Shown piece by piece: positions 15,491-51,300 of a DNA stretch of 64,000 nucleotides. The stretch lies in NCBI GenBank assembly GCA_000004985.1, contig GG738927.1; one strand, 5' to 3'. Below the pieces are notes generated by a model. It made no database searches, was not told the origin of the DNA, and saw only the letters and a program-made list of their open reading frames with translations. This DNA comes from Naegleria gruberi. Taxonomy: Eukaryota. Numbering within the stretch: the stretch's first letter is position 1; every line of letters starts with the position of its first letter. Position numbers and translations under genes: made by a program.

Positions 15491-15693
15491 TTTTTTCTCT
15501 AAGGAAAAGTTCACCATCTTTTCTTTTCAATTTTTTGTAATTTTTGATATAGTTTACAATAAATAGCAGCTCATATATTAGCAATTATTGAGATCATTTT
15601 TGAACATTGTTGCATACTGGACGGAAACATAGAACAAATCGTTTCTTTTCCAATTCCAGTTCAGAAAAAATTGTCACAACCATAACCACCACC

Positions 15694-34960: not shown

Positions 34961-37900
34961 TTATTTCTTCTTCTTGGTAGAGTAACTTGTTTCTTTTGGT
35001 GTTGGTAGCTTTTTCTTTGGTTTCTCTTCCTCAGATTCCGAACTTTCTATCTTCTTTTTAGTTTCATATTTCATATCATCATCGGATTCTTCAGAGTCAT
35101 ACTTCTTTGCTTTCTTTGAAACAGGTGATTTGAGTGGTTTCTCTATCTTCTTTGGTGATGGACACCCATCAGAAGAGTCGTCATCTGAACTTTCTTTCTT
35201 CTTTTCACTCTTTTTAGTTTTCCATGTTTCTGTTTCTTCCTCTTCGTCATCCAATACTTCATGAATGTTTGTGAGCTCGTCTTTGGATCTCTTGACATAA
35301 ATGTGAGATTCACGAGTTCTCAATACTAATTTTCTAGACCGATACCAAGATTTGTTCATTTTTGATTCTAAGCTCATTGTTTGAAAGTTAATTGTGTTGC
35401 CATTAGAGAGTTCGTATAGAGAATTTGTAGCCTTTTTTGAGCTTGACTTTTGAGCTTTGAATAACCTGTATGCTTGTTCCACTAGTTTTGCTTCTTCTTC
35501 ACCAAGTACATTTCTACCAGAGCCTATCCCAAGTATCCATTGATACTTGGTAAACTTTTTCTTTCCTACTGACTTGTTCTCTATTTTTTCATCAACATAG
35601 GCATCTCTAAAAAAGTTTCTATTATGTGGATGGAATGAGCCAACAACATATTGACGGGTTGGCTCATATGTTATAAATTCCAAATGTGGAGGGAGGTCAC
35701 TCTTTGGTTCCTTTGGTTGAATAATTCCATTAATATCGTTAAGTGAATACTCAAAGAATAGTTTCATCTTTTTCTCCTCAACTACGTATGTTGTTCTTGC
35801 CTTAATGTGATTAAAAAGCTGACTAGCAGATATAAATTCAGAATTCCAACTGTACCTAGGAAGACGAATTTGTGTATAGTCATGATATTTTGACTTGGAA
35901 ACCGTCTTTTCGGCAGATTCAACATCATTTCCTGCTCCAATTGATTTCAGTCCTCCTCTAAAATTGGCATGCTTATAGGCATGTCTGATGAGGAGAATTT
36001 TGGCAAGACCTGTGACATTATGAAGTTTGGCTCTTGGTTGAGGCTGTCTAAAGTATCTTCTATTATGTTTGTAGAAATGATCCCCTATCAAAATATCATT
36101 TTGAACTCTTTTTTCTTCATAGCCAGCTACTCCAACTCTAAAGCCACGGAGAGCATACTTGGTTAACCTTAATTCGTCTTATGAAATTATTAGAATTTAA
36201 TTTTAAAGTACTCACAAGTTGTAGATTGTCTATCAACGTCTACAATATTGCATCTTGTCTTTATGGCTTGAATGGCTCTTGGTAATGCGTAAACTTGAGA
36301 GCCATCAAAACCAACACAACAACAATTCACATCGAATCCAATTAAGACTTCAGCCTTTTGTTGACCAAGAGATTTGTAAATTTTAAAAATTACGTAAACT
36401 TACTGGAGATTTGTAAATTCTCAAAATTACTTGCACTGTCCTTACTGAGCTGATAAACTTGAATGTAATAGCATTTTCAGTTCTGATCAACAAAATATCA
36501 TCATAATTTGTGCCTTCTTCGGTGGACTTTGGAGAGGAGTATTTTTTGGATTTTTTAGTGAGCTTGTTGAACTTGTTGCTATCATTTGCATTTTCTGGTT
36601 TTGCAAAATGTGGAATGTTTTTGATATTCTTTTTGAATAATTCAAAAAGGTAAAAAATCTTCTTTTCGGCTTCCTTTTCATCCAAACCATAAATGAATAA
36701 ATCTATATCACTGTTTTTCCAATAGGATTTTCTAAAATAGTTGAAAAGTTCTTCATCCAAATCATCTTGTTCGTATTTTTTGAATGAGCTTGCTTTTTTG
36801 GCTCGAACAGGTTTATCGTCCTCAGAACTTGTTGCTGAAAAATATCCATCTGCAACAGACCCATTATCATTATCAGAATTAGAACCATCATCCTCATCCC
36901 AGAGCACTTTTTTCTTTGCTTGTTGCATTACTCCACCTTGGAAAGGATCAACCTTTTGAAATCTACTGTAACGGTTTTCTTGTAGCAAGTCTTTTCTATC
37001 CAATTTAGCTTTGAGCATGCATGCCAAAATTCCACCACCTAATTTTTAAATATTATTGAAAATTGAATAATTAAAAATATTAAAGAAAGACATACCTGCT
37101 GCGAATACATTACTCCAATCCATATCTTTAAATAGACCACAAGTTAGAGCGTTAAATTGAGTGAAGAATTCTTCTCTATCAGAAACAATTTCTGGGATTG
37201 GTGGCAATTTGAGTCTTGAATATTCATTGATAAGTTCAGAACATTCAACAGGGTTTTCAAAATCAAAAAGCAAAGGTAGGGTACTTGGAGGATCGCATGG
37301 TTTGAGTAATTCTCTGGTAGAATGTTCATTACCAAAAACACTAACCAAATGAATGTAAGGATCTGAAAGAATCTGATTTTCTCTATCTGAAACATATAAA
37401 TTTCTCAAAAAGTCTTCCTCTTTTTTGATTTTTAAATTATTAGATCCAATATCTTCGATTGGATAACGAAGAGGATCTAAAAAGTCTAAAAGTCCTTGGA
37501 GTTTGAATTCTTTGGCCTCTTTGTAAACCAGTTTTCTCTGAGACATTTCTCTTGGGACTGAAGTGAAGGTTGCACTCTCCAAATATTCGTACAATACAGA
37601 AAAGACTTCACTATCTCTGTCAAGGAATATTTCACGGTTGGTACTTGCTTGAATCAATTGAGGGAAAATACTTTCTGGATGGACAAGTAACTTTTCAATA
37701 CCAATGCAAAATTTCACACCTCTTACATTGAAAACAATTGGTTCCTTTTTCAAAAAGGCCTCTCTTTTTCTGAGTTCTTCTCTTTCCTGTTCAAGATCAA
37801 CCTCAGCCTTTTTCAAAAAGTCTTCCATGACAGTCTTTTCCTTGAGTGTAAGCTTTGAAAACATATCCAACCATTTTTCATCACTTTCGTTTTGATTAGA

Positions 37901-38720
37901 ATGGAGAGTGTTATGTTGAGAAACTCTGTATTCTTTGATTTCAGGTGTATCTTCCTTTTCTTCCATTCTTTGGTGTCTTTGATTGGAATTGTGTTGCTTG
38001 ATCAATTCGGCAACTCTTGCACTTAATTTACTTGTACCAAAGTAATCAGATTCTATCAGCAAAGCTTTTAACTTTTCAATGGTATCTTCAGTTATATTTT
38101 CCCACAAACCTACATATGTGGTGGATCCTGTGTGAATTAAATAAATGTCACTCGTCATCACAACTAAACATTCTTAACCTACCAGTTCTAATATGCTCCA
38201 AAATGATTGGAAAATAATCTGGATTACTCTCACTCAACAAGATACAGCCATTCTCATCACGATCAACCTTAAAATCAGAATTCAACATGGTCTTGATCAT
38301 ATTCTCTCTTCTATTAATGGTAGAAAGTGAGGTAACAAACATTTTCCCTCCGACCATCAATTTGACAATATTTTCACCTGATTGCAAGATTTCCTTCACC
38401 TTTTCACTATTCAGATGATCATCTTGTTGGTCATCCATCTTGTTGCCATTAAACTTTTCTAGAACTTCGATTTCCTTCATCTTTTGTTGATTTCTTCTCC
38501 TTTCTTCATCGATTTTGTGGAGAGCATCAATTCGGACTGTTTCTAATTCTTCTCTCTCTTTGATGTATTGTGGATCATCTTTTGAAGAGGAAAATGATGA
38601 TGGTTTTGGTGCATAGGATGAAGATGACGAAGAGCTTGGTTCTTCTGCTTTGCGTTTCTTCTGATGTTCGAAGGCGGAGGATGAGCTTACTTTCCTTGCC
38701 GTTTGTTTGGTTCGGGCCAT
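34961..38720 (-). CDS. Large multi-domain protein: a histone H3 N-terminal tail mimic (MARTKQTARK), two KCTD/T1-type BTB domains, an unassigned D-x-D-containing central domain, and a K/E/S-rich tail. Approximate structure is join(34961..36167,36212..36354,36404..37038,37096..~38130,~38148..38720).
   Basis: ATG at 38720 with an A-rich leader. The first 10 residues are identical to histone H3. BTB/T1 signatures include VKLMVGGKMFVTSLSTI...DRDENGCILLSESNPDYFPIILEHIRTGRLRM and IVFNVRGVKFCIGIEKLL...REIFLDRDSEVFSVLYEYLESATF. Three downstream introns (GTATGT, GTAAGT and GTACTT donors) restore the frame exactly into the 36383..37027 ORF, a 139/143-nt exon, and the 34961..36091 ORF. The BTB1/BTB2 junction near 38130-38168 is unresolved. 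Confidence 0.55.
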
Positions 38721-38878: not shown

Positions 38879-39426
38879 TTTAAAAGTGGAAAACATAGGA
38901 AAAGTTTTGAGTAGTTTCTTCCTTACCGCCATAAGGATACCAACAAGTGTTACCCTTGGCCTTTCCTGGAATATCACCATGAGAAGTATGTGCTAGATAT
39001 TCATGAATTTTCAAATATTTTAAAATGTGAAATAGTTGTTGTTATTTCACAAATGATCAAAACACTTACCAATAGCGCTCCACAAAGTACCAGCACCATC
39101 ATTTTGATAACCAGTGGCAACTGATTGAGCTGGAGAGTCACCACTATGCTTGTAAGTAGTACCATTTACGACATAGGAGAAATTATTAGTGACTTGTTCT
39201 TGTCCACCATATGGGAACCAAGCAGTTCCACTGGCATTGGCCTTTCCTGGAATGTTACCCCATTGTGAGTGGGCTTTTTTATAATATTAAATATTTGATC
39301 CGATTAATATCACGATATGATCAATTAAATCAAACCTACCAACAGCTACATAAACAACACCAGCACCATCATTTTGGAAACCAGTGATAGCATTATGAGG
39401 AACCATACCAGAATTAGCAACTAACA
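38879..39426 (-). CDS. DM9-repeat protein of about 135 aa with two DM9 motifs. Structure is join(38879..38991,39069..39272,39339..39426).
   Basis: Three exons are joined by GTAGGT/GGTAAGT donors and AG acceptors with the frame maintained. The motif ITGFQNDGAG..(V/L)......H...G.IPGKA.....W.PYGG.E....NFSYV is repeated twice, as in DM9 domains (DUF3421). Confidence 0.6.
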
Positions 39427-40066
39427 TCTTGTTGTGTGGATTAATATTTATCAAGCGAGTGCTTTGAGTATTTTTTTTGTAAATTATTGATCAGATTTTG
39501 ATCTCATTTTAGCGCCAAAAATAGATCCGTAGACGTGTTACCTTTCCACAGCCTTGAAAAAAATTGTCGAACACGTTATTCCTCGGAGATGGACGTGTTG
39601 TTGGCACAAAACGTGTGGATAGGAGGTTAATGAAGCAGAGAAGGAATGAGTTAGGAACACGTATTGATGGTTCCTTATTTTTACAATGTTTTCAAAGTTT
39701 AAATGATGATATTTAAGAGGAACAACACGATAATTTTGATTATACATTTTAGAATGTGTTATAATTTTGTTAAATATTTACGAGATACCAAGTTTCATTT
39801 TACAAATTTTGGAGAGAACGAGAGCTGGTCGATCGAGTGGTGGTTCTAATTGAGGAGCATTGGCAGAATCTTTGAGAGATTCAGCTGTTTCCTTATTTGA
39901 GCTTTCGGCCATGAATTCTTCGAATAATTTCAAGGCATTTTCATAATGTTCTGAAAAGTATTCGAGGCAAGCATCTTGATACTTTTTCCATTTCAATAAT
40001 TGATTCTTTTGTTGCAATTCATACATCCATTCTAAAGTTTGGAAAGTCAATATTAATTAACAAAAA

Positions 40067-42514
40067 TCAGGAAAAAAACTTACCATCTTCCGAGACCTTA
40101 TTACTCGATCCCAATTCATAAATAGCCTCCTGACCAGCAATATCATTGGTAATTACGCTATCTTCAATACTATGAATATCAATTAAGGAATCAGTTTTTA
40201 CAAAAATGGAATTTTGATAAAATTGATCAGCAGCTAACATTTTCATATCGACAAATCTGGTCTGATATGTCTTACTTGCAGTTTCGAATATCCTCTCTGG
40301 AATGACTACTTGTAAATCTAAACGATGCGCAGTTTCCAATAACTTTTCCAAGTTGACTTTAGCAGAACTAATTATTGAGAAATTCTTGCTTTCTGAAGTG
40401 CCCAAATTTCCACAATATACTCTTTGGGTAGTAATTGCAAATCTGAACTGCAAATTTTCTGCCAATTGATGTGAAACCTTTTCACTCTTCTTACTGGAAT
40501 GAGATGAAAAACTGTTCGAAACCAAATTCTTTCTCACAGCTAGCAATTTCTCCTGTAAAACCTTAACAGTTGAAAGCGCCTTTTCCACATGATTCTGACT
40601 ATCTTTTGTTGTATTAAACGAAAGAATAATAATATCATTCTCAAATGCTCCAATATTAAATCCACTGCTTCGACTCTGAACATTAATTTGCTCATAAACA
40701 AGAGATAGCAAGTTGACCACCGATTTACAATCCTCTGTCTTGTACCACTGATCCAGACCGTCTAGTAAAATCCCCAGAAACGTAACTTGTTTACCTTCCA
40801 AATAGAGAGAAAACATGGAATTTTGACCTTTCTTTGAAGAGTTGGATTTTTGGGATTTGATCATATCAATCGAGCTGAACAAACCTGATTTGAAATTGCC
40901 ACTTGTTAAAATTCTGGACCTGTTTATACTTTGATGGAGAGCAGAAGAAGCTGCCTGCTGTTGTTTCCCTGTTTCATCTGATTGTCCATCTAATTCTGCT
41001 AACAAATAACTTGGAATGAAAGCTCGATACATTTTGAGTTTTTTTAACATTGCTGCAAATTGAGTTTGAACATAATTGAGCTCTGAAAAGTAACTTTTCG
41101 ATTCTTGATCTTGTAGAGCAGCATCTATATCCATGTTGGCCACTCTCTCAAACATTGTCATTAAAGTCTTGAATGGTTTTACAATACGGAATGAAAAGGC
41201 AACTCCAACCAAAACACTAACTCCGATAATTACTATACTTCCACCCAAAGCAGCCAATAGAGCAATGATAATTGGAGAAATGTAATTCCATTGTGGAGTG
41301 GACATGGCAATGACCCAATCCAAATTATATTTTGAACAAAATCTATATACGGTAATGTATTCATTAAGGGTAGAAATTTGGTAAAGAGTGTCACATTTCA
41401 ATTCTTTCAAATTTGGATAGTTTCTGTACATTTCCTTAGCCAACTTGTTATGCTCCTCAGACAAAACAGTCAACCCAGTCCTTCTAATCACATCCACCTT
41501 ATTTTCTGCCAAATAAGCCAAAGAAATCGTTCGATTATTGACAGCTATCAAATAATCAGTTTTCGTTTCTATAATAAATGCTGTCGATCTTGCAATACTC
41601 GAAACGAGATCTTCCAAGAATTTGGAGATACGTTTTAACTCCATGCTAAATGCCAAATATTTGGAAATTTCAGTTGTGGAATTTGATTTAAGCCAAGATG
41701 TCATCATGGTGACAAATGTTAAATCGGCACCGACATTATAGGAAGGAGTAAATAATGAATTGTCAGGATTTGACTTGGCAGTGGCATATAATCCAGATAA
41801 TTCAAAACTTGGCATGATCATATTAGGAGTTACTGATCTTTTGCAATAGTCGACTGTCAAACCTGCCAAACAATAATATACTTTCTGATAGGACGTGCCA
41901 ATGTCAACAAATGCTGGAATAGTTCCCCAATTAATTATTGAAATAGAACCTGTCTGATTACCAATCAAAATGGCAGAGGGCAATGCATCATGTGTTTCAA
42001 ACTCTGATTTGTAAAATTTGAACATTGACAACTCCAACTTGTCAGGATGATCCAAATCATCTTCGTGAATTTGACTTTTGGCAGTATTGACAACTAGCAC
42101 AATTTCCTGAACTGTTTTTTCGATATAGGAACGAACAGATTCGAATTCATTCTTTCGAATAGTTGATGAGAGAGATGTGATTGCTGGACCGAAACTTGAC
42201 AGCCAAGTTGCTGAGATAATTAAAGCTGACAGGACAACTAGGATTGTAATCATGGAAATGATAAAGAATTTGACAGATCTGAAACAGCTGACAGTTTTTT
42301 CATTCTTGACATTCTCAGCTAGGGAACCATCAGAATCTGCATTCGAAACTTCTTCGACATTTTGCTTTAATCCAGAAAATGATTTTTGGTTGACAGCTGT
42401 CACGACTGAATAACGTAGAGCATATGTATTCTTGGAATTGGTTGAAAGGTTGAGTGGATTCTCTATGGATTGTCGAATACTGGCAGGAACGACTTTACTA
42501 CTCGAATAAACCAT
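40067..42514 (-). CDS. Receptor-like membrane protein: TM, a ~300-aa extracellular sensor region, TM, a HAMP-like linker, and a C-terminal class III nucleotidyl cyclase-homology domain that is possibly degenerate.
   Basis: Two hydrophobic segments flank a large loop. After TM2 comes a HAMP-like amphipathic segment (FRIVKPFKTLMTMFERVANMDIDAALQDQESKSYFSELNYVQTQFAAMLKKL). The C-terminal region shows the cyclase-homology-domain layout (VTFLGILLDGLDQW... ...FRFAITTQRVYCGNLGTSESKNFSIISSAKVNLEKLLE, compared with RIGIHTGPVVAGVVG.....Y.LFGDTVNTASRMES). Confidence 0.55.
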   Translation of the reverse strand: MVYSSSKVVPASIRQSIENPLNLSTNSKNTYALRYSVVTAVNQKSFSGLKQNVEEVSNADSDGSLAENVKNEKTVSCFRSVKFFIISMITILVVLSALIISATWLSSFGPAITSLSSTIRKNEFESVRSYIEKTVQEIVLVVNTAKSQIHEDDLDHPDKLELSMFKFYKSEFETHDALPSAILIGNQTGSISIINWGTIPAFVDIGTSYQKVYYCLAGLTVDYCKRSVTPNMIMPSFELSGLYATAKSNPDNSLFTPSYNVGADLTFVTMMTSWLKSNSTTEISKYLAFSMELKRISKFLEDLVSSIARSTAFIIETKTDYLIAVNNRTISLAYLAENKVDVIRRTGLTVLSEEHNKLAKEMYRNYPNLKELKCDTLYQISTLNEYITVYRFCSKYNLDWVIAMSTPQWNYISPIIIALLAALGGSIVIIGVSVLVGVAFSFRIVKPFKTLMTMFERVANMDIDAALQDQESKSYFSELNYVQTQFAAMLKKLKMYRAFIPSYLLAELDGQSDETGKQQQAASSALHQSINRSRILTSGNFKSGLFSSIDMIKSQKSNSSKKGQNSMFSLYLEGKQVTFLGILLDGLDQWYKTEDCKSVVNLLSLVYEQINVQSRSSGFNIGAFENDIIILSFNTTKDSQNHVEKALSTVKVLQEKLLAVRKNLVSNSFSSHSSKKSEKVSHQLAENLQFRFAITTQRVYCGNLGTSESKNFSIISSAKVNLEKLLETAHRLDLQVVIPERIFETASKTYQTRFVDMKMLAADQFYQNSIFVKTDSLIDIHSIEDSVITNDIAGQEAIYELGSSNKVSEDGKFFS

Positions 42515-42941
42515 AATGCTGAGTTTCGTAGAGTTTCGTCTATTTTCGACTTTGAATGTTTTAAGGTTTAAAGTTGTTTTTTTTCGTTGTGAGTAAAAAG
42601 GTTTTGAAATCGTCAGAGTTTAATGAAGAATGAAATATCCTTAGAGATAGCCATGAAGCAAACACATTCCCGCGCAAAGTTATACGAAACTCATTGGTCA
42701 ATCGACTTGGTTGCAAAAAATCAAAAAAGTATTTAGAACTCCATATCAGAAATGGTTCAATGCATATTCGTCAACTAAATTAAAATACAAACTCGGTTTT
42801 CGTGATTAGAGGACTTTCGTGTTGAGGTTTCGTATAAATCAACCAACATCAAAATTTTAATAGCAATTTACATTTAGAAATGAGAAAATCGTAATTCGTT
42901 CATTTCAGAATATGAAAATTTAATGTCATTTGAGGTTGAAA

Positions 42942-43559
42942 TCATTTATTCATCCTTTTTTGGAAATCTCTTTGCATAGGTGCTGATTTGCTTCGAATTC
43001 TTATATCTCTTTCATTTGATTGATAATTTTCAAGTGTATCAACTGTGTCAATTGTCATTCGTCTCGAGTTTCGTTTAAAAGCCAAGTTTTCATTCGAAAG
43101 AATGGAACCTCTCCTTACCACTTTATCAGTTTCAAACAGTGCTTCATCATAACTGGTTAAATCTGGAGAAACTGAGAATACACTATCACAAACTGAACTA
43201 ATTGTTTCTACCCAAGTAGACGAATCTTCTCCATCTTTGCTGTCTTTACTCCCAGATGATGGAAATGTATAACTGTTCAAGGGTGATGCACTTGTATGAT
43301 TGTTCTCACTATGATTTGATGAAATAATGTTGTATAAATCGGACGAAACTGGAGAGAAACTATTCCCACTACCAGAAAGACTAATGTCTTTTGATTTGGA
43401 GAACGAAGATCCCAAAATATCGAGCTGGACTGAAGAAGCTGAAATTGAGGTCAATGTATTCCAACAACCAAACGCAAAATTCGCAACCCACAAATAAACA
43501 AAACTAAAGGTTTCTAATATTAATTTTCTATACTCTTTCTCTTCAAATAGCAGAGACAT
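42942..43559 (-). CDS. Hypothetical Ser-rich protein, 205 aa.
   Basis: ORF only. It lies between the two divergently oriented receptor-like genes. Confidence 0.25.
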   Translation of the reverse strand: MSLLFEEKEYRKLILETFSFVYLWVANFAFGCWNTLTSISASSVQLDILGSSFSKSKDISLSGSGNSFSPVSSDLYNIISSNHSENNHTSASPLNSYTFPSSGSKDSKDGEDSSTWVETISSVCDSVFSVSPDLTSYDEALFETDKVVRRGSILSNENLAFKRNSRRMTIDTVDTLENYQSNERDIRIRSKSAPMQRDFQKRMNK

Positions 43560-44321
43560 TTCTTTTTATTTGGTTTCTCCTCTTGGACCCAACAATTATC
43601 TGAGAGGTTTCAGTCTTTTCTTCATTCACATCATTGGAAAGCATATCTCTTTCCATTTTCTCCATTTTTATCTTTTAACTTTCCAATAAAAGTTGTGAAT
43701 TTCATGAAGGCTAGTCTATTACTTCAATCTCTCTTGATATCAAGGTCTATTTATGGATCTACTAGTTTCGAATAAAGTGAGATAGTTTAATTGAATCAAT
43801 AAAACAGTGTTTATGTTATGAATTGGCCAATTCACCGTATTTTCTATTAATTTCTCCTTTTTTTTTTTATTATTAATTTTAAAAAATTGAAATTAATTTA
43901 TTTATAAATTTTCTGAATTAAGGTTGCATTTGGAAATTCTTGGAATTTGATTACTTTGAATTTCTTGTAATATTAAACTATTCGAAATTCCAAATTAGGT
44001 CTATCCGTTAGTGTGTTTCTTTGTAACCACAAATGTTCCCTAAACGGAAAGAAAGGTAATCCAAAGACACTTCAGTTTGTGAATGATGTAAAGACACACA
44101 ACAAAAAAATGTCTTCACAACCAAAACATGTTTCTTCTTCAGTTTCGAATAATAACAATGCAACAGTTGTTCGAAAGCAATTGTCTACCGAGTAGGTTTA
44201 TAATTAATGGATTGTTACCTTATCTATTGTTCTAATTCGAATATCTCTTGTCCAAAAACATAGAAATATAAAAGATTCGGCAGGTTTCGAACAATTAGAA
44301 AAGAAAGCTTTCATCAACGAT

Positions 44322-46676
44322 ATGAAAACAAGACAAATAACGCCGAGCCCTCTAACGATTTCATCATCTTCAAATCGTCCCGAAAAACATTCGAATAATA
44401 ACATTAAAACTTGCTGCTTTGGAAGAAACTTTAGTTTACGAGTGAAAACTACTTTCGTATTAATTATAATGTTTCTCGGATTGATGGCACTTTGTCTGGG
44501 GATTTTACTAGCTGCCTTTTTCGTGGTTTTTCAAAATGTGGAATATCAACAAGCTAAAGAAGCAAGTAAACGAGTTTCTCGAGCATTATTGGACGATTTG
44601 AATTATTTACAGTCAAAAGTATTCGAATTTGGAGCATTTGATGATACAGTTTCCGTCTATGAAAATCTCACTCAGGAAAATATTGGAAATTACACTGAAA
44701 TGTATTGGCACTGTGTTTATTTAAATAGTGTGAATGTGAATATGGCTTTTCTTTATTCGAAAGATGGAACTTTAATTACAAAAGTTCATTGCTTTAAGGG
44801 GCAAATGATAGAACAAGTTCCTGATGAGTTTTCAAGTTTGGAAAAGAATTCGTATGGAAATTTCTTTTTACAAGATATTGAAAATGTTTGGAGTAGGAAA
44901 TCTGGAATTTTAATTCCAAAAAAGACAATTTTTGAGATGGCAACTTCTGATGAATCGAGGAATTTCCTTTCGAGTTATGAATCGAATGTGACGAATATTG
45001 TGTTGGTAGCTGCAATGCCAGTGCAGAGTACAAATTATGATTATTCGAGAGGTTTAGTCTTGTTTGCCAAGTATCAATTGGATGAACATGCTTTGGATAT
45101 GGCTGAAAGAACTCAACTTTGCATGACCATGATGAATTTGAAAAACGAAACTGACCTCTATTCATTCAAGGAATCGATTGGATCGTTGGATACGAATGCA
45201 TTTTCGAGTGGAACTGATTGGAAAGTAACAAATATTACAACCTCATCCTATTTAACTGATTGGATTGATAACGAATCGTCGTTGGTTCAGTTTTTGGACT
45301 CGAGTGAAGAAAATTCAGTGAAATTGAATAATCGTCAATGTTGGAAAGATAATATGAATGATGAAAGTTCTGTTTCCTTCAATGCTGGATCTCCTACCGA
45401 TAGAATGGCTTCCTATCAAGCATTCTACACACTAGATGGAGAAAAGTCACTCATTATTCGATCCGATATTCCAAGAAAGACATTTCAAATAGGAATGGCA
45501 TCATTTCTAGTTGTTTGGTCAGTCATGACTTTTATGATTGTTGTCATGTCAATTGCCATTGTCTGTTTTGTGGAAATGATAGTTCTGAGAAGAGTCATCT
45601 CACTATCAAGTACTGTACAACGTGTGCACGACACTGTTAATTATGCAATTAGAGCTCCAAAACTAGGAAATGATGAACTAGGTCAATTATCCAAAGATCT
45701 TAACACCATGCTCGGAGAGATTGAACATGTGCAAAATCAACTCGAAAAGGACAATACAGTGATGCAGGATTTATTGGAGAAGACTGCTCTCGAAGAGGCC
45801 AAGAGTAGATGCGTCATGAATAGTATTGACGATTTCATTGTAACTGTTGACTGCTCAAATGGCATGCTTCTCAATATCAACCTCTCATTTGAGAGTAGAA
45901 TCTTGAGAAAACAGAGAGCTTCCGTAAATTTTGAAGCACTCCCCTTCAATCAAGCTGTCTTTGCCTATTTTAAGGAAATTCCATCATTGGAATTGCTTTT
46001 ACAAAAATTGGAAAATCTTGCCACGACTGGATCACATTGGGAAACTACCATTCTATCAGGATTTGGATTGAATATTCCAGTACATGTCACTGCTAAAAGA
46101 ATTAAGGTAATTATGGGTAAATTCACACGAGTGGATGCATACATGATTGTTGCCAGAAATTTGAGCGATCAAAACGAAATGAAACAAACCATCAAGAACA
46201 AACAAGATAAACTCGATGAAATGAAACAACATTCTGACTTTGACAGATACATGACAGATCCAATACTAAGACAACAATTTAAGGAATTTTGCACTAAGGA
46301 ACGAGCTGAGGAAAATGTCATCTTTTTGGAACAAGTAATGGAATATAAGAAATTATCAAGAACTCACGAAAGAGCCAAGAAACAAAAGGAAATTATTGAA
46401 ATGTTTCTTTCTGAAAATTCAGCAACACCAATCAATATTTCAAAACAAGTTTTTACAACAGAAGTGAAGAAAATTTTGGAAGGTTTTGGCCAATTACAAC
46501 TTTTTGATAATTTAGAAACAATTATTAAGAGTATGCTCATTTTGGATAAGTTTAAGAGATTTATTTCACAATTTGAAACAAGTCAAATGACGACCATTGA
46601 TACGGACAACATGTCTAGCTCAGGATCAATCGCATCAGATGCCAGTTATCAACACACTTTTACATCAACTGATTAA
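44322..46676 (+). CDS. Receptor-like membrane protein: TM, a ~340-aa extracellular sensor region, TM, HAMP, a PAS-like domain and an RGS domain.
   Basis: The HAMP sequence immediately follows TM2 (VLRRVISLSSTVQRVHDTVNYAIRAPKLGNDELGQLSKDLNTMLGEIE). The RGS-domain signature is ILRQQFKEFCTKERAEENVIFLEQVMEYKKL...IIEMFLSENSATPINIS....KKILE. Confidence 0.65.
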   Translation: MKTRQITPSPLTISSSSNRPEKHSNNNIKTCCFGRNFSLRVKTTFVLIIMFLGLMALCLGILLAAFFVVFQNVEYQQAKEASKRVSRALLDDLNYLQSKVFEFGAFDDTVSVYENLTQENIGNYTEMYWHCVYLNSVNVNMAFLYSKDGTLITKVHCFKGQMIEQVPDEFSSLEKNSYGNFFLQDIENVWSRKSGILIPKKTIFEMATSDESRNFLSSYESNVTNIVLVAAMPVQSTNYDYSRGLVLFAKYQLDEHALDMAERTQLCMTMMNLKNETDLYSFKESIGSLDTNAFSSGTDWKVTNITTSSYLTDWIDNESSLVQFLDSSEENSVKLNNRQCWKDNMNDESSVSFNAGSPTDRMASYQAFYTLDGEKSLIIRSDIPRKTFQIGMASFLVVWSVMTFMIVVMSIAIVCFVEMIVLRRVISLSSTVQRVHDTVNYAIRAPKLGNDELGQLSKDLNTMLGEIEHVQNQLEKDNTVMQDLLEKTALEEAKSRCVMNSIDDFIVTVDCSNGMLLNINLSFESRILRKQRASVNFEALPFNQAVFAYFKEIPSLELLLQKLENLATTGSHWETTILSGFGLNIPVHVTAKRIKVIMGKFTRVDAYMIVARNLSDQNEMKQTIKNKQDKLDEMKQHSDFDRYMTDPILRQQFKEFCTKERAEENVIFLEQVMEYKKLSRTHERAKKQKEIIEMFLSENSATPINISKQVFTTEVKKILEGFGQLQLFDNLETIIKSMLILDKFKRFISQFETSQMTTIDTDNMSSSGSIASDASYQHTFTSTD

Positions 46677-48399: not shown

Positions 48400-51300
48400 A
48401 TGTATTCAAACAACAACAAGTGTCATTGTGGTTTAATTGCCAAGCAAGGAACGACCTCGAAGGGAGAAAATCAGGGTAGAAAGTACACCTCCTGTTCTAA
48501 AAGTATGACTGATAAGAGTCGATGCAAATTCTTCAAGTGGTTAGATTCATCAGAACAAACAGCAACAACCAACATATCATCTTCTTCATCATCCTTCAAA
48601 AGCAATAGCAAATTACAGCACAGTGAGCAGGCTTTTGATGATACTTTGAACAAGACGATACAATTGATGAATAGAGTGCTTCCTTCTTCCTTGTTATCAT
48701 CAACAAGTGGTTCTTCTTCTTCATCATCAAATAACAAGTCTCCTTCCAACAACACTAATAGCCAGTGCTCATCTCTCACACTCTCACAATTGTGCTCCAG
48801 TATGGAAGACTTGAATATTGACAAAGATCTTTCAAAGCCTTCTTCTTCTCAAGCTATTGATAGAGACTTCATATTGAATGATAGTCTTTTTCCTTCTTCT
48901 TCTTCAGAAGCAAGCAAGAATAGTCTTCCTCTGATTGGAAACAATCAGCATAAAGGAGGAACATCATCTTCATCGTTACCAAATTCTCTCCTTGAAGAAT
49001 GTATGCAAAAGGAATTAAATAGCAAACAATTGGAGGCTGTCTGTGCTAGCGAACATGATTGTGTATGTGTTTATAGTGGACCGGGATCTGGTAAGACAAA
49101 GGTAAGTTGTTGTTATTATTGGATGGTAGAGGGAATTAATAATTAATTATTTGATGAATATTCATCTTGTGATGATGTGATGAATTTTTTTTTAATTTTT
49201 ATTTAATTTTTTTAAAAAATTCATAACGGTCATGGATCCAAATTTTAGACCATCACCAACAGGATTGCCTACTTGTGTATTGTTAAAGGAATTGAACCAA
49301 GGAATGTATTTGCCATGACTTTTACTAACAAGGCTGCTCAGGAGATGAAAACAAGACTTGTTCACCTTGTGAAATTGTACGATTTTCAAAAGAGAATTAA
49401 TGCAAAGGATTTCAGTCATATTGGAACGTTTCATGCAGTTTGTGCTAATATTTTGAGAAATGAGATGCATCATTTGACTCGTATTGTTGGATTGGATCAG
49501 AAATTTATGATATTTGATTCGGAAGAGCAGCTGTCATAATTAGGAGCTTGTACAAGTCATCAACTAATCATTCCATTAGAAGNNNNNNNNNNNNNNNNNN
49601 NNNNNNNNNNNNNNNNNNNNNNNNNNNNNNNNCTTTTAAAAAATTCGTAACGGTCATTGTAAACTTTGGGTGGATCCAAATTTTAGACCATCACCTACAG
49701 GATTGCCTACTTGTGTATTGTTAAAGGAATTGAACCAAGGAATGTATTTGCCATGACTTTTACTAACAAGGCTGCTCAGGAGATGAAAACAAGACTTGTT
49801 CACCTTGTGAAATTGTACGATTTTCAAATTAATGCAAAGGATTTCAAGACTTGTTCACCTTGTGAAATTGTACGATTTTCAAATTAATGCAAAGGATTTC
49901 AGTCATATTGGAACGTTTCATGCAGTTTGTGCTAATATTTTGAGAAATGAGATGCATCATTTGACTCGTCTTGTTGGATTGGATCAGAAATTTATGATAT
50001 TTGATTCGGAAGAGCAGCTGTCAATAATTAGGAGCTTGTACAAGTCATCAACTAATCATTTCATTAGAAGTTTACTTCCATTGAGTTTGTCTTTGGAGGA
50101 TATGGAGAAGAAACTCTCTCCAACTCTAGTTTTACAAACGATATCACGATGTAAGAATCAACAGGTTTCAGCTGATGAATATTCGAAAGCATTCCATCAA
50201 GAAATTGAGGAAACGGTCATTGCTGAACTATTTGTAGAATATCAACAGTATTTATCGAAACACAATGGGGTGGATTTTGATGATTTATTGCTTCATGTTG
50301 TGTACTTGTTTGAAAAATTCCCTCTAGTGAGAGAAAAGTATGCCAATCAATGTGAAGTATTATTGGTCGATGAATTTCAAGATATCAACAAGTTACAATA
50401 CAAGATTGCCATGCATTTGAACTCAAAGAGGAAGAACATCTTCTTGGTTGGTGATTCCGATCAAAACATTTACACTTTCAGATTCAGTGATAGCTCAATA
50501 ATGCGGGAAGTTATCAAAAAGTATGAGAAGGAGGGAAAGAGCATGAAAGTCATCATGATGAATGAAAACTATCGATCCACAAGAAGTATTGTCCAATTTT
50601 CAGACAAAATAATAGCTAGCAATTCTAACAGATTAAGAACTATCAGCTCTACCACTTCAAACACCACGGGTTTACCAGTTTCGATAGTCAGTTGCTCTGA
50701 TGAAGCCGAGTTCATTACAAATGAAATTGTAAAACTCACAAACATGAATAACAACATTCAATATTGCGACTTTGCAATCCTTATCAGAGTCAACTCTGCT
50801 TCTCGAGTATTCGAAGACATTTTTGATAGGAAAAAGTTGCCTTACAGAATTTTGAATTCCACAAGATTTTACGACTCTATGGAAGTGAAAGATATTCTTT
50901 CCTATGCAAAAGCTATTGCAAATCCAGATAATGATCACTTCCTGTTGAGCTGTGTGAATGTTCCAAGAAGATGCATCACTGAGGAGACAAAGTCCAAGTT
51001 GATAAAGCTTGCAGCTCAGAATAAGATGTCTCTGAGGTCAATTATCAAGAATCATAACAAGGAAATTGCTGGACATCTAGGAGCCAATGAGTTACAAACA
51101 CTCATTTCCACAATAGATTTTATCGAAAAGTCTCAAATTAATCTTCATTCTCCTTCAACTATTATGCAAGATATTATTCGGGTGATTGATTATGAATCCT
51201 ACTTGAAATTCACACAGAAGAATATGTTCGAAACAAGATGGGAGAATTTGAAAGAGTTAATTAACATGTGTCAAGAATTTGAGTCCAAATCAACCATTCC

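What the first reader, a model, noticed from the sequence alone, without database searches (positions are those of the whole stretch)
40067..46676. Divergently oriented pair of bacterial-style sensor/HAMP receptor-like genes: one with a cyclase-homology output, one with PAS+RGS output
Both proteins have the two-TM periplasmic-sensor architecture, with a HAMP linker immediately after TM2. This layout is characteristic of prokaryotic chemoreceptors and histidine kinases. The outputs, however, are eukaryotic-style. One is a C-terminal class III cyclase-homology domain, with possibly degenerate catalytic residues. The other is a PAS-like module followed by a canonical RGS domain. A HAMP-coupled RGS would be a direct ligand-gated GAP for G-alpha. 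That is interesting given the atypical G-alpha at 14208..15490. The two genes are transcribed away from a shared 1.8-kb intergenic region, which contains a small S-rich ORF.
Basis: partly seen in the sequence, partly recalled or inferred. Interest (0 to 1): 0.65.

Follow-up and report, generated by a model that had tools for sequence, protein, structure and literature searches.

The report
Naegleria receptor-RGS and receptor pseudo-cyclase genes
Two neighbouring but unlinked genes of the amoeba Naegleria gruberi encode two-pass membrane receptors: one joins a bacterial-type CHASE4-HAMP sensor to a eukaryotic RGS (G-protein off-switch) domain, and the other carries a cyclase-like domain that has lost its catalytic residues.

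Summary
The window is Naegleria gruberi. Both ORFs exist exactly at the stated coordinates.

Gene B (44322..46676 +) is TM1, CHASE4, TM2, HAMP, coiled coil, PAS-like fold, RGS.
- RGS passes Pfam's threshold and keeps the G-alpha contact residues.
- Residues 37-489 align collinearly with a bacterial CHASE4-HAMP protein (hhalign 98.9%).
- The PAS call rests on a model only.

Gene A (ORF 40067..42514 -) gets no Pfam HAMP or cyclase hit itself.
- It belongs to a large, mainly heterolobosean family (494 hits).
- Its C-terminal domain is a class III cyclase-homology domain (hhalign 99.1%; all top-50 PDB fold matches are cyclases).
- The first metal Asp, the substrate Lys and the transition-state Arg are replaced (L583, A623, K724), so it is most likely a pseudo-cyclase. 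So are nearly all family members.
- Its HAMP is only HAMP-like.
- A 52-nt intron adds an 84-aa tail.

The "divergent pair" is not a unit. An annotated gene lies between the two, and the N. lovaniensis orthologues sit on different contigs.

B is best read as a two-TM receptor-GAP, analogous to the 7TM-RGS proteins that act on Naegleria's self-activating G-alpha subunits. I found no paper describing a CHASE4/HAMP-RGS architecture. Verdict: new variant of a known kind, moderate interest.

The parts
44322..46676 (+). Gene B: receptor-type RGS protein, 784 aa, single exon as annotated
   Evidence: The ORF is. It is 100% identical to the NCBI 'predicted protein [Naegleria gruberi]' P0001. It aligns collinearly over its full length with N. 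lovaniensis P0002 and environmental P0003.
44448..44531 (+). B TM1 (about aa 43-70)
   Evidence: Kyte-Doolittle peak of 3.01, with 3 K/R in the N-terminal flank. AlphaFold predicts a helix over 39-104.
44532..45488 (+). B extracellular CHASE4-type sensor loop (about aa 71-389)
   Evidence: Pfam CHASE4 covers aa 88-270 at E=4e-4 and 21 bits, below the threshold of 26.2. Orthologue P0003 carries a precomputed CHASE4 hit. hhalign against a bacterial CHASE4-HAMP protein gives 98.9%. C267 and C340 are invariant. The AlphaFold model is poor here, with pLDDT below 50.
45489..45587 (+). B TM2 (about aa 390-422)
   Evidence: Kyte-Doolittle peak of 2.85, with 3 K/R in the C-terminal flank.
45582..45731 (+). 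B HAMP domain (aa 421-470), of the 'NYAIRAP...DELGxL' type
   Evidence: Pfam HAMP at E=1e-4 and 23.0 bits, threshold 25. NCBIfam models for YfiN/DgcN and HK_near_YfiR match aa 394-483 at E=3.5e-9. phmmer against bacterial HAMP proteins P0005 and P0006 gives domain E-values of 1e-11 to 4e-13 in a six-sequence database. Orthologues P0002 and P0003 carry precomputed HAMP hits.
45732..45821 (+). B helical connector (aa 471-500), with the invariant 'LLEKTALEE.KSR' motif
   Evidence: The residues are invariant in the three orthologues. AlphaFold predicts a continuous helix over 452-500.
45822..46166 (+). B PAS-like fold (aa 501-615)
   Evidence: The AlphaFold model has a beta-beta-alpha-alpha-beta-beta-beta order, with block-mean pLDDT of 38-82 and highest values at 550-610. 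Foldseek matches FixL, LOV and HTR PAS domains at E of 3e-4 to 1e-3 and TMt of 0.5-0.58. There is no Pfam PAS hit in any orthologue. The profile search of PDB sequences gives only weak photoactive-yellow-protein hits at E of 0.26-0.9.
46239..46571 (+). B RGS domain (aa 640-750)
   Evidence: Pfam RGS at E=2.3e-15 and 57.4 bits, threshold 23.9. phmmer against PDB gives RGS10 at 1.8e-8, plus RGS5, 12, 14 and 4. Foldseek gives RGS8, 1, 4 and 16 at TMt 0.62-0.77 and rmsd 2.6-2.9. E663-E664-N665, N705, D742 and R746 are conserved in all three orthologues.
42942..43559 (-). Intervening gene: S-rich 205-aa predicted protein. It is not part of either receptor.
   Evidence: It matches exactly the annotated N. 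gruberi protein NAEGRDRAFT_75679 / D2W2R2. It has no significant Pfam domain and no tblastn match near either N. lovaniensis orthologue.
40084..42514 (-). Gene A exon 1 (aa 1-810 plus the first base of codon 811)
   Evidence: The ORF is. The splice donor G|GTAAGT is at 40084/40083. The spliced translation is 894 aa.
40032..40083 (-). Gene A intron, 52 nt, GT..AG
   Evidence: The sequence was read directly. Splicing restores the frame and gives '...SEDEWMYELQQ...', as in the NCBI model P0007 and N. lovaniensis P0008.
39778..40031 (-). Gene A exon 2: an 84-aa helical tail, weakly TPR-like, ending '...ICKMKLGIS*'
   Evidence: The tail matches the C-terminus of N. lovaniensis P0008, '...ICRMKIENL', and gives a tblastn hit of 3.6e-26 to L001. 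Paralogues have sub-threshold TPR hits at the same position. A's own tail has no Pfam hit.
42200..42268 (-). A TM1 (about aa 83-105)
   Evidence: Kyte-Doolittle peak of 2.79, with 4 K/R in the N-terminal flank.
41282..42199 (-). A extracellular sensor loop (about aa 106-411). The fold is unresolved but may be Cache/PDC-like.
   Evidence: The four Cys residues (C215, C224, C374, C393) are invariant in the orthologues. Five of 50 family members hit MCP-like_PDC_1, one hits dCache_1 and three hit NIT. The AlphaFold model shows a long helix followed by alpha/beta modules. Most of it has low pLDDT, but aa 350-407 reach about 80.
41195..41281 (-). A TM2 (about aa 412-440)
   Evidence: Kyte-Doolittle peak of 2.60, with 2 K/R in the C-terminal flank.
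41024..41194 (-). A HAMP-like juxtamembrane segment (aa 441-497)
   Evidence: Pfam gives no HAMP hit for A or for 9 of 10 paralogue segments; P0012 alone scores 16.4 bits at E=0.012. hhalign of the family segment against real HAMPs gives P=9.6e-4 and probability 22% over 53 columns. The register is right: P447 aligns with the AS1 proline, and 'FSEl..vq..F..M' aligns with 'DEiG.L...N.M'. The AlphaFold model is helical but has pLDDT of about 45.
40985..41029 (-). A 'YRAFIPSYLLAEL' motif (aa 496-510), resembling the helical element that precedes class III cyclase domains
   Evidence: F499, P501 and L505 are nearly invariant across 50 family members. The motif resembles 'LGKYLPRDVAEQIL' in the bacterial cyclase P0163. 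This is an inference from reading the sequences, not a statistical test.
40817..40984 (-). A S/K/Q-rich low-complexity linker (aa 511-566), inserted between that motif and the cyclase-like domain
   Evidence: The segment is poorly conserved and varies in length among orthologues and paralogues. AlphaFold pLDDT is 26-40.
40235..40816 (-). A degenerate class III cyclase-homology domain (aa 567-760)
   Evidence: hhalign of the subfamily against canonical cyclase domains gives 99.1% and E=1.7e-18. The family profile hits bacterial class III cyclases at 3e-32 to 4e-8. Nineteen of 50 family members hit Pfam Guanylate_cyc. AlphaFold block-mean pLDDT is 71-89 over most of the domain, with dips to about 44-66 in inserted loops near 640, 680 and 705. 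The Foldseek top 50 in PDB are all class III nucleotidyl cyclases, with E down to 1.8e-10 and TMt up to 0.76. The catalytic positions read L583, A623, D627, S713, V720 (with N721 next to it) and K724.

Best explanation
These are two independent N. gruberi genes for two-pass membrane receptors. They happen to be neighbours.

Gene B:
- It is a chimeric receptor-GAP. An extracellular CHASE4 domain between two TM helices, followed by a HAMP domain, forms a block homologous as a whole to bacterial CHASE4-HAMP sensors.
- A conserved helix and a PAS-like fold join this block to a canonical eukaryotic RGS domain that keeps the G-alpha-contacting residues.
- Inferred mechanism: ligand binding outside shifts TM2 and the HAMP bundle in a dimer. 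The change travels down the helical connector and the PAS-like module, and alters how well the membrane-tethered RGS domains reach G-alpha-GTP. Deactivation of G-alpha then becomes ligand-dependent.
- Published work reports some Naegleria G-alpha subunits to be self-activating, so a regulated GAP would be the controlling step. B would be a two-TM counterpart of the 7TM-RGS receptors.

Gene A:
- It is a receptor pseudo-cyclase: extracellular Cys-containing sensor, TM2, a divergent HAMP-like segment, a cyclase-transducer-like motif, a disordered linker, a class III cyclase-homology domain and a helical tail.
- The cyclase domain lacks the first metal-binding Asp, the substrate-binding Lys and the transition-state Arg. 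A most likely makes no cAMP or cGMP as a homodimer.
- It probably signals through conformation-dependent protein interactions: dimerisation of the pseudo-catalytic domain, the TPR-like tail, and possibly heterodimers with paralogues.

Shown: ORFs, intron, domain homologies, residue substitutions, taxonomic range, lack of conserved linkage. Inferred: topology, ligand gating, GAP activity, catalytic inactivity.
For: Organism and gene models.

Topology. Invariant loop cysteines.

Gene B:
- RGS is above the Pfam threshold. PDB RGS10/5/12/14/4 sequence hits cover the EEN motif, N705 and D742/R746. Foldseek gives RGS8, 1, 4 and 16 at TMt 0.62-0.77.
- HAMP and CHASE4 are near threshold in B and present in the orthologues.
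- B residues 37-489 align collinearly with residues 7-381 of an Anaerolineales CHASE4-HAMP-PAS-GAF-GGDEF-EAL protein (hhalign 98.9%, E=2.8e-17, 366 columns).
- The HAMP shares the NYAIRAP/DELG motif with bacterial kinases and diguanylate cyclases.
- The top Foldseek hit is the two-TM sensor kinase WalK.
- GC content is the same in both halves of the gene, and the architecture is conserved in N. lovaniensis and an environmental relative. This rules out a chimeric assembly.
- Context: N. fowleri G-alpha subunits self-activate and are deactivated by receptor-RGS proteins (PMC9283941).

Gene A:
- The family search gave 494 hits at E<=1e-3.
- Nineteen of 50 members hit Guanylate_cyc, and UniProt names paralogues 'Guanylate cyclase domain-containing'.
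- The family profile hits bacterial class III cyclases.
- hhalign against canonical cyclase domains gives 99.1%, and the Foldseek top 50 are all cyclases.
- Catalytic substitutions. In the census, only 2 of 116 eukaryotic sequences keep all four of Asp, Asp, Asn and Arg.

No linkage between A and B.
Against: - No biochemical data exist for either protein.
- B's sensor loop is modelled at pLDDT below 50, and CHASE4 and HAMP both fall just under Pfam's thresholds in B itself.
- The PAS call has no significant sequence support.
- No N. fowleri orthologue of B appeared, so B may be dispensable or lineage-restricted.
- A's HAMP is weakly supported.
- The register at the Asn/Arg helix of A is ambiguous by one residue. 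N721 is aligned with the catalytic Asn in one MAFFT run but not or in hhalign.
- A keeps the second metal Asp (D627), and a Lys sits at the Arg position. Residual or heterodimer-dependent activity cannot be excluded.
- The 55-aa disordered linker between the transducer-like motif and the cyclase-like domain sits awkwardly with rigid helical signal transmission.
Confidence: 0.7

Rival explanations
1. The two genes form a functionally coupled divergent pair sharing a regulatory region. One is an active receptor cyclase and the other a receptor-GAP, and both act in one pathway with the G-alpha encoded 29 kb away.
For: The genes are adjacent and transcribed in opposite directions. Both have a two-TM receptor layout. 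A G-alpha gene does lie in the window at 14513..15517.
Against: An annotated gene (NAEGRDRAFT_75679) lies between them. The N. lovaniensis orthologues are on different contigs: A's upstream neighbour there is a Cys_Met_Meta_PP gene and B's is a START-domain gene. Synteny downstream of A (the Rad10 gene) is partly kept, but B is absent there. A lacks essential catalytic residues. N. fowleri is reported to have about 107 RGS-domain and 80 cyclase-domain proteins, so chance proximity is expected.
Confidence: 0.07
2. Gene A is still an enzyme. Either it uses a non-canonical set of catalytic residues, or it forms one competent active site in a heterodimer with a canonical paralogue, as the mammalian C1/C2 halves do.
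For: D627 (second metal Asp) is kept. S713 sits at the specificity position, N721 lies next to the Asn position and K724 sits at the Arg position. Canonical members exist within the same family: P0091 from Willaertia, and P0137. The fold is intact, with pLDDT mostly 70-89.
Against: A supplies a complete set for neither half-site. On the metal side L583 replaces the first Asp. On the substrate side A623 replaces Lys and K724 or L725 replaces Arg. Only 8 of 121 domains in the census keep the first Asp, and 5 of those are the bacterial controls. The degeneracy is therefore a long-standing property of the family and not a complementary C1/C2-style split.
Confidence: 0.15
3. B's RGS domain acts as a G-alpha-binding effector or anchor module, as in RGS-RhoGEFs or GRKs, and not as a GAP. 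Alternatively, the CHASE4 loop no longer binds a ligand and B is a constitutive membrane-tethered GAP.
For: Naegleria has an RGS-RhoGEF that binds G-alpha as an effector through a canonical RGS interface. B's sensor is highly diverged, at 22% identity to the nearest bacterial protein, and scores below the Pfam CHASE4 threshold.
Against: B's best sequence and fold matches are R4/R12-type GAP-competent RGS domains (RGS10, 8, 1, 4, 16), not RhoGEF or GRK RH domains, which score E of 0.14-0.7. The residues equivalent to RGS4 E87/N88, N128 and D163/R167 are invariant in the three orthologues. That numbering comes from my recollection of the RGS4-Gi-alpha1 structure. The sensor loop keeps many invariant positions among orthologues that share only 34-38% identity, which suggests purifying selection on it.
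Confidence: 0.2
4. The architectures are artefacts: bacterial contamination, a chimeric assembly or mis-joined gene models.
For: The NCBI model of A (P0007) is probably chimeric at its 3' end, where a DM9 tail has been joined on.
Against: Both ORFs are uninterrupted across all domain boundaries. They lie on a 174-kb N. gruberi scaffold and have the window's GC content throughout. Full-length collinear orthologues exist in N. lovaniensis, in N. fowleri (for A) and in environmental contigs.
Confidence: 0.02

Closest known systems
Seven-transmembrane RGS receptors (Arabidopsis AtRGS1; the 28 Nf 7TM-RGS proteins of Naegleria fowleri, Bosch et al. 2022, PMC9283941)
   Same: A membrane receptor carries a C-terminal cytoplasmic RGS domain. 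The organism's G-alpha subunits are self-activating, so a receptor-controlled GAP is the regulated step. B's RGS domain is canonical.
   Different: B has two TM helices around a large CHASE4 ectodomain, not a 7TM bundle. It couples to the RGS through HAMP, a coiled coil and a PAS-like module, which is the bacterial transmitter logic. It shows no detectable homology to 7TM-RGS proteins outside the RGS domain.
Bacterial CHASE4-HAMP(-PAS)-GGDEF/EAL sensors and YfiN/DgcN-type HAMP proteins
   Same: The TM1-CHASE4-TM2-HAMP block is collinear (hhalign 98.9%). The HAMP motif NYAIRAP...DE(L/I)G is shared. NCBIfam YfiN/DgcN models match aa 394-483.
   Different: The output is a eukaryotic RGS domain, not GGDEF/EAL or a histidine kinase. 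The host is a eukaryote. Identity to the bacterial proteins is only about 20-30%.
Bacterial HAMP- or CHASE2-linked class III adenylate cyclases (for example P0162 HAMP+Guanylate_cyc and P0159 CHASE2+Guanylate_cyc; the mycobacterial Rv3645 type, from my own knowledge)
   Same: A has a two-TM receptor layout, a juxtamembrane HAMP-like segment, a transducer-like 'Y.xFIPxxLL' motif and then a class III cyclase fold.
   Different: A lacks the first metal Asp, the substrate Lys and the Arg. It has a 55-aa disordered insertion before the domain and a helical TPR-like tail. Its HAMP is not recognised by Pfam.
The Naegleria adenylyl/guanylyl cyclase expansion (80 CYCc proteins reported in N. fowleri, PMC9283941)
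   Same: A belongs to this expansion. Paralogues are named 'Guanylate cyclase domain-containing protein' by UniProt and 'class 3 adenylate cyclase' by JGI.
   Different: The paper I read treats these proteins as putative cyclic-nucleotide-forming enzymes. In A's family, nearly all members lack the canonical catalytic set.

Membership tests
RGS domain (PF00615) - gene B | Profile match above the curated threshold | tested here: met
   57.4 bits against a threshold of 23.9, E=2.3e-15, aa 640-749.
RGS domain (PF00615) - gene B | All-helical RGS-box fold | tested here: met
   AlphaFold pLDDT is 64-83 over 640-750. Foldseek gives RGS8, 1, 4 and 16 at TMt 0.62-0.77 and rmsd 2.6-2.9 A.
RGS domain (PF00615) - gene B | G-alpha switch-contacting residues (equivalents of RGS4 E87/N88, N128, D163, R167; numbering from my own knowledge) | tested here: met
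   E663-E664-N665, N705, D742 and R746 align with the corresponding residues of RGS10 and are invariant in the three orthologues.
RGS domain (PF00615) - gene B | GAP activity on a G-alpha subunit | not testable with these tools
   This needs single-turnover GTPase assays.
HAMP (PF00672) - gene B | Profile match, and position directly after TM2 | tested here: met
   B itself scores 23.0 bits against a threshold of 25, so it is just short. The orthologues carry Pfam HAMP hits. NCBIfam YfiN models match at E=3.5e-9. phmmer to bacterial HAMP proteins gives 4e-13. hhalign across the block gives 98.9%. The domain starts at the end of TM2.
CHASE4 (PF05228) - gene B | Profile match, and location between two TM helices | tested here: met
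   B scores 21.0 bits against a threshold of 26.2, which is sub-threshold. P0003 carries a CHASE4 hit. hhalign to a CHASE4-bearing bacterial protein gives 98.9% and covers the whole loop. The fold could not be checked, because pLDDT is below 50.
PAS fold - gene B | Profile match or a five-stranded antiparallel sheet with flanking helices | tested here: inconclusive
   No orthologue has a Pfam PAS hit. The profile search of PDB sequences gives only photoactive yellow protein at E of 0.26-0.9. The AlphaFold topology is PAS-like, and Foldseek matches FixL and LOV PAS domains at TMt 0.5-0.58 and E of about 5e-4.
7TM-RGS receptors (AtRGS1 type) - gene B | Seven-transmembrane domain N-terminal to the RGS | tested here: not met
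   Only two hydrophobic segments are present. B works like a receptor-RGS but is not a member of this family.
Class III nucleotidyl cyclase (PF00211) - gene A | Profile match of the protein itself | tested here: not met
   No hit at E<=1. The closest paralogues are marginal, at 14-21 bits against a threshold of 21.9.
Class III nucleotidyl cyclase (PF00211) - gene A | Homology of the domain, by profile-profile comparison and by fold | tested here: met
   hhalign gives 99.1% and E=1.7e-18. The family profile hits bacterial cyclases. Nineteen of 50 relatives hit PF00211. The Foldseek top 50 are all cyclases.
Class III nucleotidyl cyclase (PF00211) - gene A | Catalytic set: two metal-binding Asp, substrate Lys, transition-state Asn and Arg | tested here: not met
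   The positions read L583, A623, D627, V720 (with N721 next to it) and K724. A is therefore filed as a cyclase-homology pseudoenzyme and not as a cyclase.
Class III nucleotidyl cyclase (PF00211) - gene A | cAMP or cGMP synthesis | not testable with these tools
   This needs an enzyme assay.
HAMP (PF00672) - gene A | Profile match | tested here: inconclusive
   Pfam gives no hit for A. One paralogue scores 16.4 bits. hhalign against real HAMPs gives P=9.6e-4 and probability 22%, in the correct register. The position after TM2 and the conserved Pro447 fit.
Cache/PDC-type extracellular sensor - gene A | Profile match or PDC fold in the loop | tested here: inconclusive
   A has no hit. Five of 50 relatives hit MCP-like_PDC_1 and one hits dCache_1. 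The model of the loop is mostly low confidence.
Functionally linked divergent gene pair | Shared intergenic region and conserved adjacency in relatives | tested here: not met
   An annotated gene lies between the two. The N. lovaniensis orthologues are on different contigs with different neighbours.

The most novel reading that the evidence does not exclude
Gene B is a working ligand-gated GAP. A bacterial CHASE4-HAMP transmitter module was acquired by an ancestor of Naegleria, probably by horizontal transfer, and now directly controls a eukaryotic RGS domain. It would thereby switch off self-activating G-alpha subunits in response to an extracellular ligand. That would be a direct mechanistic bridge between prokaryotic two-TM/HAMP signalling and heterotrimeric G-protein signalling. 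In parallel, gene A would represent a large heterolobosean family of receptor pseudo-cyclases, which would mean that a sizeable part of the celebrated Naegleria cyclase expansion does not make cyclic nucleotides.
Probability: 0.4. Interest if true: 0.7.

Novelty: new variant of a known kind. Interest (0 to 1): 0.5.

Why it matters
Receptor-RGS proteins are the proposed controllers of G-protein signalling in organisms with self-activating G-alpha subunits, such as plants, Trichomonas and Naegleria. The known examples are 7TM proteins whose ligands and gating mechanism are poorly understood.

A two-TM CHASE4-HAMP-RGS protein would show that the same job can be done with the modular bacterial transmitter. 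The piston and rotation mechanics of that transmitter are comparatively well understood, and it is easy to swap in chimeras. The question of how a receptor gates a GAP would then become experimentally tractable. B would also be a clear case of a prokaryotic sensor module wired to a eukaryote-specific output.

The pseudo-cyclase result matters for interpreting the 80-plus "cyclases" counted in Naegleria genomes, including the pathogen N. fowleri. In the family sampled here, almost all members lack the catalytic residues.

Tried and rejected
- Pfam and NCBIfam run directly on A gave no HAMP or cyclase hit, so the family route was needed.
- A profile of A's cytoplasmic part from three orthologues found nothing among PDB sequences.
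- Pfam on isolated HAMP-like segments of A and nine paralogues gave one weak hit only.
- The third homologous-protein search, using the 50-sequence family alignment, returned only 7 proteins because of the word-index candidate limit. It was useful for the bacterial cyclase link, but it did not deepen the alignment for structure prediction. Both AlphaFold models therefore rest on 6-8 sequences and are poor outside the CHD, RGS and PAS-like parts.
- The look-up of encoding contigs for the N. gruberi protein itself found no record.
- A metagenome scan for more relatives of B found none.
- The afdb50 fold library was not available, so the architecture survey by fold could not be done.
- Literature searches for HAMP+RGS, CHASE4+RGS and Naegleria pseudo-cyclases returned nothing relevant.
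- The Anantharaman et al. 2011 comparative-genomics paper on G-protein systems could not be retrieved. It might mention such architectures.
- N-glycosylation sequon counts do not discriminate the loop from the cytoplasmic parts.
- I considered and rejected contamination or chimeric assembly, a functional divergent pair, and membership of B in the 7TM-RGS family.

Full report
**Source and observation**

The window is from Naegleria gruberi. The product of ORF 44322..46676 (+) is 100% identical to an NCBI "predicted protein [Naegleria gruberi]" on a 174-kb scaffold. ORF 40067..42514 (-) matches another protein on the same scaffold. GC content is uniform at about 0.34 across the window and across both genes.

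**Gene structure**

Gene B is a single uninterrupted ORF of 784 aa, identical to the NCBI model.

Gene A is longer than its ORF.
- The reading frame leaves the ORF at a G|GTAAGT donor (40084/40083). It re-enters after a 52-nt intron ending TTTAG (40032).
- The spliced product is 894 aa.
- Its last 84 residues, including the end '...ICKMKLGIS', are matched by the N. lovaniensis orthologue P0008.
- The NCBI model P0007 splices further, onto a DM9-repeat tail. That tail maps to 39427..38883, 350 nt beyond A's stop codon. The N. lovaniensis orthologue ends before such a tail, so this fusion is probably an annotation error.
- The intron does not separate any of the domains at issue.

**Topology**

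Each protein has two strong hydrophobic segments: A at about 83-105 and 412-440, B at about 43-70 and 390-422. K/R residues cluster before TM1 and after TM2. This predicts N-in, a loop of about 300 aa outside, and C-in. All four cysteines of A's loop, and two of B's, are invariant among orthologues, which fits an extracellular domain. No dedicated topology predictor was available.

**Gene B domains**

- *RGS.* The domain is unambiguous: Pfam 57.4 bits (threshold 23.9) at aa 640-749, and sequence hits to RGS10, 5, 12, 14 and 4 in PDB. Fold matches to RGS8, 1, 4 and 16 reach TMt 0.62-0.77 at 2.6-2.9 A.
- *G-alpha contact residues.* E663-E664-N665, N705, D742 and R746 align with the residues that contact the G-alpha switch regions in RGS4 (E87/N88, N128, D163, R167; numbering from my own knowledge). 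They are invariant in the three orthologues.
- *HAMP and CHASE4 in B itself.* HAMP (aa 421-468, 23.0 bits, threshold 25) and CHASE4 (aa 88-270, 21.0 bits, threshold 26.2) fall just short of the Pfam thresholds.
- *Support from relatives.* N. lovaniensis P0002 carries a precomputed HAMP hit, and the environmental protein P0003 carries both HAMP and CHASE4.
- *Support from bacterial models.* NCBIfam models for YfiN/DgcN-type proteins match aa 394-483. The HAMP shares the 'NYAIRAP...DELG.L' signature with bacterial kinases and diguanylate cyclases.
- *The sensor block as a whole.* A profile of the three orthologues aligns residues 37-489 collinearly with residues 7-381 of an Anaerolineales CHASE4-HAMP-PAS-GAF-GGDEF-EAL protein (hhalign 98.9%, E=2.8e-17, 366 columns). 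The whole TM1-CHASE4-TM2-HAMP block is therefore homologous to a bacterial sensor module.
- *Taxonomic reach.* Apart from the two orthologues, the only proteins found at E<=1e-3 were bacterial.
- *PAS-like region.* Between HAMP and RGS lie an invariant helix ('LLEKTALEE.KSR') and a region of about 115 aa. The AlphaFold model gives it a beta-beta-alpha-alpha-beta-beta-beta order. Foldseek matches it to FixL, LOV and HTR PAS domains (TMt 0.5-0.58, E about 5e-4), and the top hit for the whole chain is the sensor kinase WalK.
- *Weakness of the PAS call.* No Pfam PAS model matches any orthologue. A profile search of PDB sequences gives only sub-significant photoactive-yellow-protein hits. "PAS-like" is therefore a reasonable but unproven label.

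**Gene A domains**

- *Direct searches fail.* Pfam and NCBIfam find neither HAMP nor a cyclase domain in A. A three-orthologue profile finds nothing among PDB sequences.
- *The family.* An exhaustive HMMER search with the orthologue profile found 494 relatives at E<=1e-3, and 154 at E<=1e-10. Many match over nearly the full length.
- *Who they are.* The named ones are from N. fowleri, N. lovaniensis, N. gruberi and Willaertia magna, plus environmental contigs. Several are labelled "Guanylate cyclase domain-containing" or "class 3 adenylate cyclase" by their sources.
- *Link to cyclases by profile.* Of 50 sampled members, 19 hit Pfam Guanylate_cyc, the best at 7e-20. The closest paralogues of A are marginal, at 14-21 bits. 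The family profile retrieves bacterial CHASE2- and HAMP-linked class III cyclases at 3e-32 to 4e-8.
- *Link by profile-profile comparison.* A's subfamily against canonical domains gives 99.1%, E=1.7e-18, over 168 columns.
- *Link by fold.* The AlphaFold model is confident over most of aa 572-760 (block-mean pLDDT 71-89, with dips in inserted loops). All 50 best PDB matches are class III nucleotidyl cyclases (E down to 1.8e-10, TMt up to 0.76). The cyclase-homology assignment is therefore sound.

**Catalytic residues of A**

MAFFT, hhalign and an HMM alignment agree on the following positions in A:

| Canonical role | Residue in A |
|---|---|
| First metal-binding Asp | L583 |
| Substrate Lys | A623 |
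| Second metal-binding Asp | D627 (kept) |
| Specificity Thr/Asp | S713 |
| Transition-state Asn | V720 (N721 is one residue out of register) |
| Transition-state Arg | K724 |

One other MAFFT run aligns N721 with the catalytic Asn, which would put L725 at the Arg position.

In a census of 121 domains, only 7 keep both Asp, the Asn and the Arg. Five of these are the bacterial controls and two are eukaryotic (P0091 from Willaertia, and P0137). The first Asp is present in only 8 of the 121. From established knowledge of class III cyclases, which use two-metal catalysis by the two Asp residues and transition-state stabilisation by Asn and Arg, A is most likely inactive as a homodimer. It also supplies a complete set for neither half of a heterodimeric site.

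**Other parts of A**

- *HAMP-like segment.* The segment after TM2 (aa 441-497) has the expected position, a conserved Pro and a two-helix pattern. Support is weak: one paralogue scores 16.4 bits in Pfam, and hhalign against real HAMPs gives P=9.6e-4 and probability 22%, although in the correct register.
- *Transducer-like motif.* A nearly invariant 'YR.FIP..LL' motif follows. It resembles the helix that precedes bacterial cyclase domains.
- *Linker.* Next comes a disordered S-rich insertion of about 55 aa.
- *Sensor loop.* Its fold is unresolved. Some relatives hit PDC/dCache or NIT models.
- *Tail.* The C-terminal tail is helical, and paralogues show sub-threshold TPR hits there.

**Are the two genes a unit?**

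No.
- The S-rich ORF between them is an annotated gene, NAEGRDRAFT_75679.
- In N. lovaniensis the orthologues are on contigs PYSW02000021 and PYSW02000038, with unrelated neighbours.
- A Rad10-family gene downstream of A is still nearby there. Local synteny around A is therefore partly kept, without B.
- The G-alpha gene is real (14513..15517, Pfam 96.6 bits), but it lies 29 kb away in a genome family with very many G-alpha, RGS and cyclase genes.

**Mechanism**

For B, I commit to a ligand-regulated receptor-GAP. The CHASE4 ectodomain senses a ligand. TM2, HAMP, the helical connector and the PAS-like module transmit the change in a dimer. The membrane-tethered RGS domain then changes its access to, or activity on, G-alpha-GTP. 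The published finding that N. fowleri G-alpha subunits self-activate and are deactivated by 7TM-RGS proteins (PMC9283941) makes a receptor-controlled GAP the natural control point. The domain composition is shown. The gating and the GAP activity are inferred.

For A, I commit to a signalling pseudoenzyme: a sensor-controlled dimeric cyclase-like module with a protein-interaction tail. The fold and the residue losses are shown. The inactivity and the mode of output are inferred.

**Novelty**

Both proteins are in public databases as uncharacterised predictions. UniProt names the N. lovaniensis orthologue of B "RGS domain-containing protein". I found no paper that describes a HAMP- or CHASE4-coupled RGS protein, or pseudo-cyclases in Naegleria. 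One potentially relevant comparative-genomics paper could not be retrieved.

B is a new variant of the receptor-RGS kind, with a prokaryotic sensor-transmitter and a eukaryotic output. A is a divergent member of the known Naegleria cyclase expansion, with the added point that its family is overwhelmingly degenerate at the active site.

**Limits**

- The alignments behind both structure models are shallow.
- No topology predictor or AFDB search was available.
- The survey of HAMP+RGS architectures is restricted by the word-index search and by one empty metagenome scan.

Overall interest is moderate, at 0.5.

Noticed in passing
window 38883..39427 (-): The DM9-repeat (PF11901) tail of the NCBI model for gene A (P0007, 1015 aa) maps here, about 350 nt downstream of A's stop codon. 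The N. lovaniensis orthologue ends before any such tail. This is probably a separate small DM9 gene wrongly fused to A in the annotation.
   Followed up: partly
The match covers profile positions 8-276 of 333, so the gene may have further exons.
   Followed up: partly
window 49832..52570 (+): A 912-aa ORF combines a UvrD/REP-type superfamily-1 helicase (UvrD-helicase plus UvrD_C, E of 1e-41 to 5e-57) with a C-terminal PARP catalytic domain (E=2.5e-25). This is an unusual fusion. The S-rich ORF at 48400..49146 just upstream may be part of the same gene.
   Followed up: no
window 37046..38161 (-) and 38148..38720 (-): Two overlapping ORFs each carry a BTB_2 (KCTD-type) domain. They could be tandem paralogues or one gene interrupted by an intron or frameshift.
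   Followed up: no
window 44110..44193 (+): A short ATG-initiated ORF ('MSSQPKHVSSSVSNNNNATVVRKQLSTE') lies in the same frame as gene B, about 130 nt upstream of its ATG, and is separated from it by two stop codons. The orthologues P0002 and P0003 have much longer N-termini, so B may have an unannotated upstream exon. No convincing GT..AG intron was identified.
   Followed up: partly
family of gene A (P0010-P0158): Only 2 of 116 eukaryotic sequences with a detectable cyclase-homology domain (gene A plus 115 relatives) keep the canonical Asp/Asp/Asn/Arg set. Eight of 50 sampled members carry N-terminal ankyrin repeats and three carry NIT sensor domains. A conserved 'YELG...DEW.YEL' motif follows the domain.
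   Followed up: partly
window 32987..34873 (-) and L001 16939..18777: A Rad10/ERCC1-family gene lies a few kb from gene A in both N. gruberi and N. lovaniensis (48% identity). Its relative strand orientation differs between the two species, which suggests a local inversion.
   Followed up: no
gene B orthologues: No N. fowleri orthologue of gene B was returned, although N. fowleri proteins are in the database and gene A's orthologue P0010 was found. B may have been lost in, or not annotated in, the pathogenic species.
   Followed up: no
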